Below are positions 5,076 through 8,324 of a stretch of 64,000 nt of DNA, in pieces (position 1 is the stretch's first letter; each line of letters begins with the position of its first letter). The DNA comes from a virus. Its lineage: Duplodnaviria > Caudoviricetes. Location: positions 1,607-65,606 of IMG/VR virus record IMGVR_UViG_3300042691_005081, one strand, 5' to 3'. The position numbers and the translations under genes were made by a program. The notes under the pieces were generated by a model, which was given only the letters and a program-made list of their open reading frames with translations, was not told the origin of the DNA and ran no database searches.

Positions 5076-6638
5076 ATGGCAATTCAAACACTTCCTGGAG
5101 TAACGGGGTTTCAATATGCACGTGTAGCGTCAATGGACAAACGTGCTGTAGGAAAATTGACTGACTCTAATCACTTGGAGTCTTTCCACTCCACTGAACC
5201 TGCAGACTATGATAAAAAAATTATCAGTTTGTATACACAGAGTTCATTGTATAGCAATGACTTTTTAGACATGATCAACAAAAGCACTCCTTATTACATT
5301 GATAATAACAGTGATGCTTGGAAATGGCAAATAGCTGTTCCTTACAAATTCCCAAAAATTATTGATGTTCCTCAATCTACATTAGATTTAATGTCTTCTG
5401 GTAAAACAGGTGTAGATGGTCAAGAATTTAATTTAGTATTAGACACTAATGAATTCTCTAAAAATGCTATTGTATCTGTAGGTACACGTCAATATGGTCC
5501 ACGTTTCTATGTAATTAAAGATCCACAACCTTGGAACATGGGGTATTTATATACATTTACATTAGTAAGTGATAATCCTCAAATTGATTTTGTAAACCCT
5601 ACATTTTTACAACATGGTATTGAACTAGAATTAGTTGATGCTGCTATTGGTGAGTTTGATCAAGATCTTTTAGGATTACCAAGATTGGGTGAACAAATCA
5701 CAATGTTTGAATCATTATCTAGTGCATATGGTTATGAGCACAAAATTACAGAATGGGCTGATGATAAAACAATGAGAGATGCTTCTGGTAAACCATTAGA
5801 TATTTTAGTATATGCTCCACAACGTAGAAATCAATTACCTTTAACACGTAATGATGTTAAATGGGAACCATTTATTGAGTTCTGGATGCGTAAATCAATG
5901 TTAGAATTAAAAGTTAAACGTATGATCTGGGCTAAACCAGGTACAGTTAAAACTAATGGTTCTAAACAAGAATTAAAAAGAACATCTGCTGGTGTATATC
6001 ACAGAATGCGTAACAATGGAAACTTGGTACAATATAATAGAGGGGAATTTTCTGCTAACTTGATTCGTTCAGTATTTGGAGATTTGTTCTATAGAAGAGT
6101 GGATGTAAAAGACCGTTCTGTAAAAATGTATACTAATGAAGCTGGATTCGATGTATTCCAACAAGCTTTGAAAAATGATGCATTAAATTCTGGTCTAACA
6201 TTAATGGCAGATAGCGGAAATAGATTTATGCAAGGAGAAGGACAACACATCACTTATAACTTTGCATTTGATGCAATGGTTACACGTGAAACTGGTAGAG
6301 TTGAACTTATCCACTTAAAAGAATTAGATTTACCACAAACTAATTTAGAGTTTGGACAAAACAAAAAATCTACTCCTGTATTTATGGTGTTTGATGTGTC
6401 TCCAATGTCTGATGGTTCAATGGTGAATAACATTAGAGAAGTGAGAATGAAAGGTGCTCCTTCTATGACATGGGGGTATATTGATGGTACTCGTCACCAC
6501 TTAGGTTTTGCTAAGTCTCAAGGTATGAGTTCAGCTAATAAATTCCCAGGATACGAAATCTGGATGAAAGACAGATGTGATGTATTTATTGAAGATTTAT
6601 CTAGAACTGTGTTGATCGAGGAAATTCCACAATTCTAA
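5076..6638 (+). CDS. Major capsid protein (crAss-like)
   Basis: 520 aa; position after scaffold; codon usage typical of a highly expressed gene (CGT, TTC, AAC); followed by structured RNA elements. Confidence 0.85.
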   Translation: MAIQTLPGVTGFQYARVASMDKRAVGKLTDSNHLESFHSTEPADYDKKIISLYTQSSLYSNDFLDMINKSTPYYIDNNSDAWKWQIAVPYKFPKIIDVPQSTLDLMSSGKTGVDGQEFNLVLDTNEFSKNAIVSVGTRQYGPRFYVIKDPQPWNMGYLYTFTLVSDNPQIDFVNPTFLQHGIELELVDAAIGEFDQDLLGLPRLGEQITMFESLSSAYGYEHKITEWADDKTMRDASGKPLDILVYAPQRRNQLPLTRNDVKWEPFIEFWMRKSMLELKVKRMIWAKPGTVKTNGSKQELKRTSAGVYHRMRNNGNLVQYNRGEFSANLIRSVFGDLFYRRVDVKDRSVKMYTNEAGFDVFQQALKNDALNSGLTLMADSGNRFMQGEGQHITYNFAFDAMVTRETGRVELIHLKELDLPQTNLEFGQNKKSTPVFMVFDVSPMSDGSMVNNIREVRMKGAPSMTWGYIDGTRHHLGFAKSQGMSSANKFPGYEIWMKDRCDVFIEDLSRTVLIEEIPQF

Positions 6639-6651
6639 TAATAGTAAAAGT

Positions 6652-6711
6652 AGTTACTACGCCAAGAAGAATAATTACTCATTTAGGAGTTGTAGGCGTA
6701 CCAGAGTAACT
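6652..6711 (+). other. Long interrupted RNA hairpin downstream of MCP
   Basis: AGTTAC/GTAACT, TACGCC/GGCGTA and ACTC/GAGT nested pairings. Confidence 0.55.
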
Positions 6712-6721
6712 CATTTATTCC

Positions 6722-6768
6722 GAGAAAAATCCCCTCACCTCCTCTCCCTCCTAGAGGGGATGATTCTC
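6722..6768 (+). ncRNA. Hairpin with C/U-rich loop containing an anti-Shine-Dalgarno-like sequence
   Basis: GAGAA/TTCTC plus perfect ATCCCCTC/GAGGGGAT stem; loop ACCTCCTCTCCCTCCTA. Confidence 0.5.
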
Positions 6769-6772
6769 AACC

Positions 6773-6830
6773 CAGAGTGTTTGATATGGATAGTATCCAT
6801 GATCAGGTTCCTTCGGTGGAACCACTCTAC
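6773..6830 (+). ncRNA. Minimal tRNA-like structure (acceptor stem, one hairpin, T-arm-like hairpin)
   Basis: AGAGTG/CACTCT stem; TGAT-ATGGAT/ATCCAT-G-ATCA hairpin; GTTCC-TTCGGT-GGAAC arm; lies 4 nt upstream of a tRNA 5' half. Confidence 0.5.
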
Positions 6831-6834
6831 AAAT

Positions 6835-6874
6835 CGCGTGGTAGAGCAGTGGTAGCTCAGCAGGCTCATAACCT
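6835..6874 (+). pseudogene. 5' half of an initiator-like tRNA-Met(CAT), truncated in the 3' strand of the anticodon stem
   Basis: CGCGTGG TA GAGC AGTGGTA GCTC A GCAGG CTCATAA CCT, then AT-rich sequence; closely resembles bacterial tRNA-fMet 5' half. Confidence 0.85.
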
Positions 6875-6888
6875 AATATAAACTAAAT

Positions 6889-7248
6889 GTGGCTTATAAA
6901 AATAAAAAAGACCAAGCAGAAGCAGCAAAGCGTCATTATGATTTAAATAAAGATAAAGTTAAAGCAAGAACAAAAGCAAATAATATTATATCTTTAGAAA
7001 GAAATCGTAATTTTGTTTGGAATTATTTAAAGAATAATCCATGTATAGATTGTGGAGAAATAGATCCAGTAGTTTTAGAATTTGATCATAGAGATACTAC
7101 AACAAAAAAGTTTTCTATTTCTAATGCTATAAGACAAAAAATTTCTATTAAATCTATAACAGAAGAAATAGAAAAGTGTGATGTTAGATGTGCAAATTGT
7201 CATAGAAGAAAAACAGCAATTCAATTTAACTATTACAAAATAAAATAA
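6889..7248 (+). CDS. HNH endonuclease (putative homing endonuclease)
   Basis: CIDCG...LEFDH...CANCHRRKT zinc-binding HNH motifs; GTG start. Confidence 0.88.
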   Translation: MAYKNKKDQAEAAKRHYDLNKDKVKARTKANNIISLERNRNFVWNYLKNNPCIDCGEIDPVVLEFDHRDTTTKKFSISNAIRQKISIKSITEEIEKCDVRCANCHRRKTAIQFNYYKIK

Positions 7249-7250
7249 AT

Positions 7251-7324
7251 AGTGTGGTAGACTGGAGGGGTTCCAGCTCAGTCTCATAAACTGAAGTACG
7301 TTGGTTCGAGTCCAACCCACGCAA
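7251..7324 (+). tRNA. tRNA-Met(CAT), atypical D-arm, 1:72 mismatch, CCA not encoded
   Basis: Acceptor AGTGTGG/CCACGCA, D region CTGGA-GGGGT-TCCAG, anticodon arm TCAGT-CTCATAA-ACTGA, T-arm GTTGG-TTCGAGT-CCAAC. Confidence 0.85.
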
Positions 7325-7355
7325 CAAATTAAAACCAAATATTAAAACTACATTT

Positions 7356-8324
7356 ATGGCAAAGACAGGCAAAATTTCTACTATTAAAAGAGAATATAAT
7401 AGTTCTCAATCACAAACAATGGATAGTGGGTTAGCACAAAAAGGAATGACAAGAATCCCTGGAACAGGTGTATTAAAACTTCCTTATAAAGAATTGGATG
7501 GTAAATACAGAACAGGGTTAGACCCAGATGCTACTTACATTAAAAGAATTCAAGATCCAACTGAAAAACAGATTGAAATTGAAAGAGTAACTGCTCTTAG
7601 GAAAAAACTTGAAGATGCAATTGGAGATATTGATTTAGGCCCACGTTCTAAATTTTGGAATTATGGCTTATCTACTTCTACAAATGATCAAACTCATGTA
7701 CAAGCAGTTAAATTATTAGATGGAGAAAACTATTTTGATTTATCAAATGCTTTTCAAGAAATAGCATTTTCTTGGCTTAGAGTACATCCAACTATTGCAA
7801 CATCTCTTCAAGCTTGGGAAAGAGGAGAATTTCCAGCAGAAACACAATTTTATGTTGTTGATGATGAAAGAGAGAATGAAGTGGTGTACAAGAAAAAACA
7901 ATTAATTAACAAAGCAATTGTTAAATTTGATTCTATGAGTCCTGAGAAGAAGAAAAAAGTTGCAAGACTTTTAGGTCTTCCAGTAACAGAAAACTCAAAA
8001 GAAGAAATGGTGTATAACTTAGTAGATAATGTATTAAAACAAACAGAATTTAAAAATGGAAAATATTCAGGATTAAATCCAGTTGAAGTGTTTAATAGAT
8101 TTGCTGATATGAAAGAGTCTTTGCTCCATATTAAAGATTTAGTAAAACAAGCTATAACTCATTCTATATATAGAATAAAACCTAGTGGAACTGTATATGA
8201 AGGAGAGCATGAAATAGCTAAAGATGAAGAAGAATTAATTAAATTCTTAGCTGATGATGATAACCAAGATGAGTTATTAACATTAGAAGGAAAATTAAAA
8301 ACTAAAAAACTAGCTGCTATTTAG
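7356..8324 (+). CDS. Conserved crAss-like head-region protein
   Basis: 322-aa ORF in the slot after MCP that crAss-like phages fill with a conserved gene. Confidence 0.6.
   Translation: MAKTGKISTIKREYNSSQSQTMDSGLAQKGMTRIPGTGVLKLPYKELDGKYRTGLDPDATYIKRIQDPTEKQIEIERVTALRKKLEDAIGDIDLGPRSKFWNYGLSTSTNDQTHVQAVKLLDGENYFDLSNAFQEIAFSWLRVHPTIATSLQAWERGEFPAETQFYVVDDERENEVVYKKKQLINKAIVKFDSMSPEKKKKVARLLGLPVTENSKEEMVYNLVDNVLKQTEFKNGKYSGLNPVEVFNRFADMKESLLHIKDLVKQAITHSIYRIKPSGTVYEGEHEIAKDEEELIKFLADDDNQDELLTLEGKLKTKKLAAI

What the first reader, a model, noticed from the sequence alone, without database searches (positions are those of the whole stretch)
6835..7324. Initiator tRNA gene split by an HNH cassette that supplies a replacement 5' half
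Seen: an orphan tRNA-fMet-like 5' half (6835-6874), an HNH gene, then a full tRNA-Met. The orphan acceptor strand CGCGTGG pairs better with the downstream 3' strand CCACGCA (six Watson-Crick pairs plus the initiator-diagnostic C1.A72 mismatch) than the downstream tRNA's own AGTGTGG does (A.A mismatch plus G.U). Joining 6874 to 7293 rebuilds a near-canonical tRNA-fMet with one anticodon-stem mismatch. Inference: an intron-less homing element inserted in the anticodon arm and restored the tRNA with a divergent, cleavage-resistant 5' half. Assembly of a tRNA from the two halves is a less likely alternative.
Basis: partly seen in the sequence, partly recalled or inferred. Interest (0 to 1): 0.72.

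Follow-up and report, generated by a model that had tools for sequence, protein, structure and literature searches.

The report
Nuclease-plus-tRNA cassette splitting phage initiator tRNA
In this uncultured crAss-like freshwater phage, a selfish DNA-cutting-enzyme gene that travels with the front two-thirds of a foreign methionine tRNA has landed inside the phage's own initiator-type tRNA gene, leaving a dead 40-base stump and a patched hybrid tRNA.

Summary
6835-6874 is the first 40 bases of an initiator-type tRNA-Met. 6889-7248 is an intact 119-aa HNH gene. 7251-7324 is a complete tRNA-Met(CAU).

Of 80 close relatives (capsid protein 93-97% identical), 27 carry one uninterrupted initiator-type tRNA at exactly the stump's position. 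None has two tRNAs, and none has this HNH gene.

The last 26 bases of the window's tRNA and its 3' flank match those resident alleles. Bases 1-48 are foreign: they belong to a phage tRNA(CAU) class with an odd D arm. So the tRNA is a hybrid, and bases 42-48 of the old gene were overwritten.

Homologues of this HNH sit directly upstream of a same-strand tRNA in 53 of 120 distinct loci. Two further loci show stumps that break after the anticodon arm.

The same arrangement occurs at 100% identity in contigs of four public runs from four study codes, so it is not an assembly artefact.

The same 50-base patch occurs without stump or upstream HNH in two other contigs, which is probably a state after the nuclease gene was lost.

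Homing, resistance of the host's own alleles to cutting, and function of the hybrid tRNA are inferred, not shown. This scan has noted the same layout before on other DNA. Four of my full-text searches found no paper describing it for tRNA genes.

The parts
6835..6874 (+). Stump: nt 1-41 (40 bases, 7-nt D loop) of the resident initiator-type tRNA-Met gene. It sits in its native position right after the conserved CACTCTACAAAT.
   Evidence: The breakpoint is ambiguous by up to 2 bases (6874-6876).
6875..6888 (+). Left end of the insert: a 14-base A/T-rich spacer carrying the start context of the HNH gene.
   Evidence: No counterpart in the 6 relatives aligned in A2, and none of the 80 relatives has this HNH at the locus.
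6889..7248 (+). Intact HNH endonuclease gene, 119 aa, GTG start.
   Evidence: ORF. PHROG HNH families at E 9e-27. The N-terminus MAYKNK and the C52, C55, D66, H67, C97, C101, N103, C104, H105 columns are conserved in homologues. AlphaFold model has mean pLDDT 96.
7251..7298 (+). Foreign tRNA part, nt 1-48: acceptor 5' strand, non-canonical D arm, anticodon arm (CAU) and variable loop.
   Evidence: Does not match the resident profile before model position 28. Identical 50/50 in L023/L082. The D arm belongs to a class found in 71 IMG/VR stretches and in Gordonia phage Boopy tRNA-Met.
7299..7324 (+). Resident 3' part: T arm, acceptor 3' strand and discriminator. The crossover lies at 7299-7300.
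   Evidence: 26 of 26 identical to the resident tRNA of L017, L022, L030, L034 and L053. 53 of 54 identical to L017 when the 3' flank is included.
7251..7324 (+). Hybrid tRNA-Met(CAU) with an A1.A72 mismatch.
   Evidence: ARAGORN. Rfam 38.5 bits. Pair list.
6831..6845 (+). Direct repeat D2, copy 1 (copy 2 at 7247-7261, 13 of 15 identical): the two tRNA starts with the preceding AAAT.
6861..6874 (+). Direct repeat D3, copy 1 (copy 2 at 7279-7292, 12 of 14 identical): the two anticodon arms. Copy 1 ends exactly where the stump ends.
7258..7260 (+). TAG formed by tRNA nt 8-10, in frame with the HNH ORF four codons after its TAA stop. In 17 of 53 cases of this HNH family, the stop codon lies at exactly this tRNA position.

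Best explanation
A free-standing HNH endonuclease gene that travels fused to the front two-thirds of a tRNA-Met(CAU) gene entered the phage's resident initiator-type tRNA gene. The phage is crAss-like and the tRNA gene lies between the major capsid gene and the next gene.

The most likely course is as follows. The resident gene was broken just after its anticodon arm, at nt 41/42. The right-hand end was repaired by copying from a donor, using homology in the conserved T arm. This copied the donor's tRNA nt 1-48 and the HNH gene. The left-hand end was joined without homology.

The result is: resident nt 1-41 as a dead stump, a 14-base spacer, the HNH gene, then a hybrid tRNA made of foreign nt 1-48 plus resident nt 49-73.

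Shown: the insertion and replacement anatomy, its absence from relatives, the foreign origin of the patch, and the tight HNH-tRNA linkage across the family.

Inferred: that this HNH makes the break; that neither the stump nor the hybrid is cut because each lacks one side of the site; that the hybrid tRNA is made and used; and that the stump-less, HNH-less allele of L023/L082 arose by later loss of stump and HNH between the 15-base direct repeats.
For: Empty and filled sites. In 27 of 80 relatives one uninterrupted initiator-type tRNA starts right after CACTCTAC(A/T)AAT, exactly where the stump starts. No region has more than one tRNA or any other tRNA fragment at E<=0.01.

Native flanks. The element before the stump is 59/61 identical to L017. 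The tRNA 3' end plus flank is 53/54 identical.

Foreign patch. Profile matches split at 6835-6876 and 7278-7325. The D arm TAGACTGGAGG(N)GGTTCCAGC occurs in 71 IMG/VR stretches, of which 55 are called tRNA-Met(cat).

Spread. The 50-base patch is 50/50 identical in L023, where the neighbouring sequence is 280/297, 48/56, 21/25 and 380/446 identical and the T arm is of another resident type.

Cassette linkage. In 53 of 120 distinct homologue loci a same-strand tRNA starts -20 to +80 from the HNH stop. In 17 of 53 cases the stop codon is tRNA nt 8-10, and the window keeps that TAG in frame.

Recurrence. Stumps without an intact upstream tRNA occur in 3 of 53 cases (the window, L114, L257). All break after the anticodon arm.

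Intact enzyme. The ORF is full length and its N-terminus and HNH/Cys columns are conserved.

Real DNA. Contigs with 0 differences cover 6737-7800 (X1), 6776-7460 (X4), 6822-7110 and 7133-7598 (X6), and 6825-7126 and 7251-7460 (X7).
Against: No cleavage or homing data exist.

No close copy of this HNH was found elsewhere whose context could be read. The best matches were 58% in IMG/VR, 63% over a part in metagenomes and 71% for P0002.

The nearest HNH-less relatives differ by 5-15% in the flanks, so there is no otherwise identical pair of filled and empty sites.

L023/L082 carry the patch with no upstream HNH and no stump. The patch can therefore exist or spread without this gene.

52 of 80 relatives have no tRNA here at all, so the tRNA is dispensable. 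The hybrid may be a by-product of repair and not a selected replacement.

Only 2 of 71 tRNAs of the patch's class have an HNH homologue within 900 bases upstream.

Seven of 80 relatives carry other HNH genes in this gap, three of them without any tRNA. The gap is thus an HNH hotspot whether or not a tRNA is present.

Fold searches did not confirm the HNH fold.
Confidence: 0.75

Rival explanations
1. Passive recombination scar. Two phage haplotypes, one with the resident allele and one with the patch allele as in L023, recombined unequally. The HNH gene is merely a passenger of a hotspot and does not target tRNA genes.
For: L023/L082 show the patch allele without this HNH. The capsid-downstream gap holds other HNH genes in 7 of 80 relatives, three of them without any tRNA. 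Direct repeats of 15 and 14 bases link stump and hybrid.
Against: It does not explain why homologues of this HNH abut a same-strand tRNA in 53 of 120 loci, often sharing the stop codon with tRNA nt 8-10. It also does not explain why two unrelated loci have stumps broken at the same tRNA position.
Confidence: 0.15
2. Two tandem tRNA-Met genes existed, and the HNH insertion deleted the 3' part of the first.
For: In the wider HNH family, 4 of 53 cases have an intact same-anticodon tRNA upstream of the HNH.
Against: 0 of 80 relatives have two tRNAs or a second fragment at this locus. The hybrid's 3' end and flank are the resident type and its 5' part is foreign.
Confidence: 0.03
3. A split or intron-bearing tRNA: the stump and the 3' part are brought together at the RNA level by splicing or by pairing of halves.
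For: The stump shows no decay. Joined at 6874/7293, it gives a near-canonical initiator cloverleaf.
Against: No Rfam ribozyme or intron family matches at E<=10. The 418 bases between are 360 bases of ORF plus a competing tRNA 5' part. No inverted repeat links 6875-6890 with 7270-7292. The bases 7293-7298 used in the join are foreign. No DNA contig in four runs joins 6874 to 7293, so no DNA form lacking the insert was seen; no RNA run was laid.
Confidence: 0.02
4. Assembly chimera.
For: None beyond the metagenomic origin of the record.
Against: Contigs identical to the window span the junctions in four runs from four study codes, dated 2019 and 2024. One of these runs may be the source sample.
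Confidence: 0.01

Closest known systems
Phage T4/T6 SegB, a free-standing homing endonuclease in the tRNA gene cluster (PMC2330249, abstract seen; PMC13096335, abstract and section 10 read)
   Same: It is an endonuclease gene outside any intron that lives among phage tRNA genes. It recognises tRNA gene sequence: a 27-bp site holding the conserved T-stem-loop motif. It drives inheritance of itself and neighbouring tRNA genes. SegB homologues are enriched near tRNAs across phages.
   Different: SegB is GIY-YIG, not HNH. It sits between whole tRNA genes. The text I saw of those papers does not describe it fused to a tRNA 5' part, nor leaving a stump plus a hybrid tRNA. Their supplements were not seen.
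Mobile endonuclease ORFs (mORFs) that make gene hybrids in fungal mitochondria: atp6 of Allomyces macrogynus; atp6, atp9, cox2 and nad3 of Glomus (PMC3630166, passages read)
   Same: The endonuclease ORF travels with a foreign copy of the end of the gene it enters. The foreign piece becomes part of the expressed gene. The native piece is left beside it and is closer to the relatives' sequence than the inserted piece is.
   Different: Those are protein genes of mitochondria. The endonucleases are LAGLIDADG or GIY-YIG. The 3' (C-terminal) end is replaced and joined in reading frame. Here it is a tRNA gene of a phage, an HNH enzyme, and the 5' two-thirds are replaced.
Integrases that insert into tRNA genes and bring a replacement 3' end (recalled, no call)
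   Same: The target tRNA gene stays whole because the element carries a copy of the displaced part.
   Different: That is site-specific recombination through an identical core. It replaces the 3' end and leaves no nuclease-made break. No integrase is present here (ORFs).
Group I introns with homing endonucleases in tRNA anticodon loops, such as cyanobacterial tRNA-fMet and tRNA-Leu (recalled, no call)
   Same: An endonuclease gene sits inside a tRNA-fMet-type gene near the anticodon.
   Different: There is no ribozyme here. The gene is patched at the DNA level, not by RNA splicing.

Membership tests
HNH (beta-beta-alpha-metal) endonucleases | Match to family profiles | tested here: met
   phrog_2255 'HNH endonuclease' E 9e-27, phrog_3106 E 1.7e-22, and two more HNH PHROGs. 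Pfam-A gave no family at E<=0.1. One homologue (P0040) carries PF01844 in the precomputed list.
HNH (beta-beta-alpha-metal) endonucleases | Catalytic His...Asn...His and a pair of CxxC zinc ligands (motif recalled) | tested here: met
   C52, D66, H67, C101, N103, C104 and H105 are invariant in 74 sequences. C55 and C97 are at least 90% conserved.
HNH (beta-beta-alpha-metal) endonucleases | Fold | tested here: inconclusive
   The model has pLDDT 96. Foldseek's best rows are HNH proteins (Cap5, Cas9, Gme HNH) but at E above 1. VIA-align ranks Gme HNH 4h9d_A fourth at Z 4.1, rmsd 3.5, 62 aligned, among unrelated rows.
Free-standing homing endonuclease genes (intron-less homing) | ORF not inside an intron or intein | tested here: met
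   No intron family in Rfam at E<=10. The 424-base insert (6875-7298) is 360 bases of ORF plus 48 bases of tRNA.
Free-standing homing endonuclease genes (intron-less homing) | Present or absent among close relatives at one locus, with an uninterrupted target in those lacking it | tested here: met
   0 of 80 relatives have this HNH (other HNH genes at 44-51% identity occur in 7). 27 of 80 have the uninterrupted tRNA.
Free-standing homing endonuclease genes (intron-less homing) | Site-specific cleavage of the allele that lacks the gene | not testable with these tools
   Needs purified protein. The predicted cut is near nt 41/42 of the resident tRNA gene.
Free-standing homing endonuclease genes (intron-less homing) | The host's own alleles are not cut | not testable with these tools
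   Sequence only: the stump lacks everything 3' of nt 41. The hybrid differs from residents throughout nt 12-47.
Free-standing homing endonuclease genes (intron-less homing) | Co-conversion of flanking markers | tested here: inconclusive
   The patch is 50/50 identical in two different haplotype backgrounds, but one of them lacks the HNH.
SegB family | GIY-YIG catalytic domain | tested here: not met
   All named PHROG matches are HNH. It works like SegB but is not a member.
mORF-type gene hybrids | Endonuclease ORF plus a foreign duplicate of the displaced gene part, with the native part left beside it | tested here: met
mORF-type gene hybrids | Protein-coding target joined in frame | tested here: not met
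   The target is a tRNA gene.
Bacterial initiator tRNA (resident allele and stump) | Unpaired 1:72, A11:U24 and G-C pairs at 29-31/39-41 (features recalled) | tested here: met
   Stump plus 3' strand gives C1.A72, G2-C71 and C3-G70; D-stem pairs GC, AT, GC, CG; and two of three G-C pairs. All 27 resident alleles have a 1:72 mismatch (17 CA, 6 TT, 4 GA), and 10 have three G-C pairs. Formylation cannot be tested here.
Bacterial initiator tRNA (hybrid tRNA 7251-7324) | The same features | tested here: inconclusive
   It has an A1.A72 mismatch, but only one of the three G-C pairs (TA, CG, AT, GC, TA) and a non-canonical D arm.
Group I intron in a tRNA gene | Ribozyme core | tested here: not met
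   No match at E<=10.
Split tRNA genes (Nanoarchaeum type, recalled) | Complementary sequences after the 5' half and before the 3' half | tested here: not met
   None of the 8 inverted-repeat pairs links 6875-6890 with 7270-7292.

The most novel reading that the evidence does not exclude
HNH-tRNA cassettes are a widespread, undescribed class of homing element. They cut tRNA genes just after the anticodon arm and overwrite the front two-thirds with their own tRNA body. This moves tRNA bodies between unrelated phages: here a crAss-like phage received the D and anticodon arms of a class otherwise seen in other phage contigs, many of them large (up to 288 kb), and in actinophages. After the nuclease gene is lost, as in L023/L082, an allele that cannot be cut remains. 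Such body-swapping could also let phage tRNAs escape host nucleases that target tRNA.
Probability: 0.3. Interest if true: 0.75.

Novelty: new variant of a known kind. Interest (0 to 1): 0.5.

Why it matters
Homing endonucleases usually avoid killing their target gene by sitting in a self-splicing intron or intein, or by sitting next to the gene. Here the element occupies an RNA gene with no splicing. It does so by bringing a substitute for the part it displaces, a trick so far described for protein genes of fungal mitochondria.

This locus offers an unusually complete natural series in one phage group:
- 27 uninterrupted alleles;
- one filled site with a stump;
- two contigs with the patch only.

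It also makes a sharp, cheap prediction: a cut near nt 41/42 of the resident tRNA gene.

It further shows that tRNA genes of phages can be mosaics of unrelated tRNAs. This matters for tRNA annotation and for ideas on how phage tRNAs diversify.

Tried and rejected
Group I intron or other ribozyme: Rfam at E<=10 on 6000-8000 gave only the tRNA and six chance-level rows.

Promoters and terminators: 4 sigma-70-like sites against 3.6 expected, and 0 terminators. This is uninformative for a probable Bacteroidota phage.

PDB by sequence: only unrelated rows at E of 0.039 or more. Fold searches were inconclusive.

Search for a close copy of this HNH, to read its usual context: IMG/VR best 58%; metagenomes best 63% over a part; protein database P0002 at 71% and an identical P0001 on 3 contigs, whose contigs I could not fetch.

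Read laying: no contig joins 6874 to 7293 or removes the insert. The listed joints (6638 to 7174, 6830 to 7440 and others) have unknown sequence between and short sides, and I take them as relatives with other inserts. Contigs that match 6835-6874 and then run on unlike the window look like cellular initiator tRNA genes, not phage alleles. No RNA run held more than 0.06 of the words, so expression was not examined.

The ARAGORN bracket line printed and the anticodon-stem lists came from joins or indices that were off by one or two. They are superseded.

A 38/40 identity of the stump to L017 ignores gaps, and I do not use it.

Literature: four full-text searches for the layout found no description of an HNH gene splitting a phage tRNA gene and supplying a replacement part. 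One search found 316 papers and I viewed 25 listings. Searches found 0 papers each. One search found 24 papers and I viewed 15 listings. I checked PMC3185647 and PMC10448857 by passages. Subscription journals and supplements were not searched. The supplementary neighbourhood tables of PMC13096335 could bear on this.

Full report
SETTING. The window lies in a 65,606-base IMG/VR virus record estimated 56% complete. ORF 5076-6638 matches the crAss-virus major capsid protein family (Pfam PF23898, E 1.2e-29). The finding lies in the 717-base gap between that gene and the next gene (7356-8324). ARAGORN finds a single tRNA in all 64 kb, tRNA-Met(cat) at 7251-7325.

Read directly, 6835-6874 has an acceptor 5' strand CGCGTGG, a GAGC/GCTC D stem with a 7-base loop, the strand GCAGG, the loop CTCATAA and then CCT. 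After that it runs into A/T-rich sequence.

A GTG-initiated ORF of 119 aa follows at 6889-7248. It matches HNH endonuclease PHROGs at E 9e-27 and 1.7e-22. Pfam gives nothing at E<=0.1.

Two bases after its stop begins the tRNA, which Rfam scores at 38.5 bits (gathering score 29).

A scripted join of 6874 to 7293 has one anticodon-stem mismatch (GA, CG, AT, GC, GC) and perfect D and T stems. ARAGORN calls it tRNA-Met, and calls nothing on the stump region alone.

The stump is not a chance look-alike. A profile of 27 resident tRNAs from relatives hits the whole window only at 6835-6876 (model 1-44, E 6.4e-7; 5'-half profile E 6.8e-9) and at 7278-7325 (model 28-75, E 7e-9).

RELATIVES GIVE THE EMPTY SITE. 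The best 80 were kept, at 93-97% protein identity. Their capsid-to-next-gene gap is 151-797 bases long.

ARAGORN finds a tRNA in 28 of the 80 and never two. The profile search gives 27 full-length resident hits, one partial hit (L023), and no other fragment at E<=0.01.

In those 27, the tRNA starts directly after the conserved CACTCTAC(A/T)AAT, which is exactly where the window's stump starts. It ends in ...CCACGCAAC followed by AAATTAAA(A)CCAA..., as does the window's tRNA.

All 27 have an unpaired 1:72 (17 C.A, 6 T.T, 4 G.A). Ten have three G-C pairs next to the anticodon loop. The locus therefore holds initiator-type tRNAs of several allele families.

WHAT IS NATIVE AND WHAT IS FOREIGN. Three pieces are native:
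- The last 26 bases of the window's tRNA are 26/26 identical to the resident tRNA of L017, L022, L030, L034 and L053.
- With the 3' flank, 53/54 are identical to L017.
- The element before the stump is 59/61 identical to L017.

Bases 7251-7298 do not resemble any resident allele. Their D arm (TAGA, then CUGGA-GGGGU-UCCAG) is non-canonical. The motif TAGACTGGAGG(N)GGTTCCAGC nevertheless occurs in 71 IMG/VR stretches, 55 of them called tRNA-Met(cat) by ARAGORN. It also occurs in the annotated tRNA-Met of Gordonia phage Boopy, which is 85.7% identical to 7257-7325.

The variable loop (AGTAC against the resident AGGTC) is still of the foreign type. The crossover therefore lies at 7299-7300. The insert is 6875-7298 (424 bases), and the resident gene's nt 42-48 were replaced.

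Stump and hybrid share two short direct repeats, 13/15 at the tRNA start and 12/14 at the anticodon arm. The second repeat ends exactly at the stump's last base.

THE HNH TRAVELS WITH A tRNA. The protein is intact. Its length equals that of its nearest homologues (119 aa). The N-terminus MAYKNK... is shared, which supports the GTG start. C52, D66, H67, C101, N103, C104 and H105 are invariant in 74 sequences. The model is confident (pLDDT 96), but fold searches were inconclusive.

I examined 160 loci that encode homologues, 128 of them distinct. In 53 of the 120 with enough downstream sequence, a same-strand tRNA starts between -20 and +80 of the HNH stop. For comparison, 30 of 118 have a tRNA ending within that distance upstream.

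In 17 of 53 cases, the stop codon is the T8-A9-G10 (or TAA) of the tRNA itself. In the window the ORF stops at TAA, but the tRNA's TAG follows in frame four codons later.

Cultured examples include Rhodococcus phage Francesca, where the annotated HNH CDS overlaps tRNA-Phe. Another is Pseudomonas phage nickie, the closest cultured homologue at 57.8%, where the ORF end overlaps tRNA-Met.

RECURRENCE OF STUMPS. I joined every upstream end point with the downstream tRNA's 3' part in 53 cases and asked ARAGORN for a tRNA of the same anticodon. Seven cases scored. In four the upstream partner is an intact isoacceptor tRNA. In three (the window, L114 and L257, the last two tRNA-Arg(ACG)) it is a stump with no intact tRNA. 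Sets with upstream pieces swapped between loci gave 2, 0 and 1. In L114 and L257 the stump again ends just after the anticodon arm.

This points to a break site at about nt 41-43 of the target tRNA gene. SegB recognises a tRNA feature in a comparable way, the T-stem-loop motif (PMC2330249, abstract).

A SECOND STATE OF THE LOCUS. The first 50 bases of the hybrid occur, 50/50 identical, in L023 (the same contig as L081) and in L082. There they follow CACTCTACAAAT directly, with no stump and no upstream HNH. They are joined to a T arm and flanks of another resident type, and a different HNH (49% identical) lies downstream.

The surrounding sequence is much less alike: 280/297, 48/56, 21/25 and 380/446. 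The patch has therefore moved between backgrounds recently.

My reading, which is inference, is that this is the state after loss of stump and HNH by recombination between the 15-base direct repeats, or a repair event that copied only the patch. It equally weakens the claim that the patch needs this HNH to spread.

NOT AN ARTEFACT. Logan contigs with no differences cover 6737-7800 in X1, 6776-7460 in X4, 6822-7110 and 7133-7598 in X6, and 6825-7126 and 7251-7460 in X7. The runs are labelled fungus, freshwater and lake-water metagenomes of 2019 and 2024 and carry four study codes. One of them may be the source sample.

CAVEATS. Nothing shows that the enzyme cuts, where it cuts, or that the hybrid tRNA is made.

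The tRNA is dispensable in this phage group, since 52 of 80 relatives have none. The hybrid scores below resident alleles (37-38.5 against 41-63 bits). It keeps a 1:72 mismatch but only one of the three G-C pairs. 'Restoring the tRNA' may simply be how repair through the conserved T arm ends.

The gap is an HNH hotspot: other HNH genes occur in 7 of 80 relatives.

COMPARISON AND NOVELTY. The element works like the free-standing homing endonucleases of phage tRNA clusters (SegB: PMC2330249; PMC13096335). It also works like the fungal mitochondrial mORFs that bring a foreign copy of the gene end they displace (PMC3630166). It is a member of neither family: the enzyme is HNH and the target is a tRNA gene.

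Four full-text searches found no description of this layout for tRNA genes. Supplements and subscription journals were not covered.

Earlier notes of this scan report the same layout on other DNA many times. This is therefore a further instance, with an unusually clear set of relatives, and not a first sighting.

Noticed in passing
window 6773-6830: A two-hairpin element closed by AGAGTG/CACTCT sits directly before the tRNA site (MFE -20.8 kcal/mol, z -2.2). Relatives keep the outer stem with two different inner sequences. It is also present where there is no tRNA (L003, L039).
   Followed up: partly
window 6718-6772: The C-rich hairpin module (CCCCTCACCTCCTCTCCCTCCTAGAGGGG) is 52/53 identical in L023, although neighbouring sequence is more diverged. 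It is present in 12 of the 14 gaps printed (11 of 13 relatives).
   Followed up: no
L165-L233 (IMG/VR); L163:1495-1570: A widespread phage tRNA(CAU) class has a non-canonical D arm (TAGACTGGAGG(N)GGTTCCAGC: four bases between acceptor and D stem, a 5-bp stem). It was found in 71 stretches. ARAGORN fails on 15 of them. First-base and base-72 combinations vary (T-A, C.A, A.A).
   Followed up: partly
L003, L023, L025, L029 (about 300-750 of the capsid-downstream gap); L058, L063, L067: Other HNH genes (44-51% identical to the window's) occupy the same gap. One type lies downstream of the tRNA and has an extra N-terminal region. Another type occurs with no tRNA at all. The gap is an HNH hotspot.
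   Followed up: partly
L085:1267-1276 and 16 other loci: In 17 of 53 HNH-tRNA pairs, the HNH stop codon is formed by tRNA positions 8-10 (TAG in 15, TAA in 2). The last codons of the ORF therefore encode the acceptor 5' strand.
   Followed up: yes
L133:2147-2220; L106:2396-2425: L133 has a tRNA-Lys-like sequence upstream of its HNH with a degenerate D arm, which ARAGORN does not call. L106 has an extra anticodon-arm fragment (GGCTCATAACC) between an intact tRNA-Met and the HNH.
   Followed up: no
L125:2246-2320 and 2824-2897: tRNA-Glu(TTC) and tRNA-Lys(TTT) flank an HNH and share an almost identical anticodon arm that differs by one anticodon base.
   Followed up: no
window 6881-6891 and 7344-7358: The HNH start and the next gene's start are preceded by the same AACTA(C)A(T)T motif. 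The motif also precedes the other HNH genes in relatives and is possibly the phage's translation-start context.
   Followed up: no
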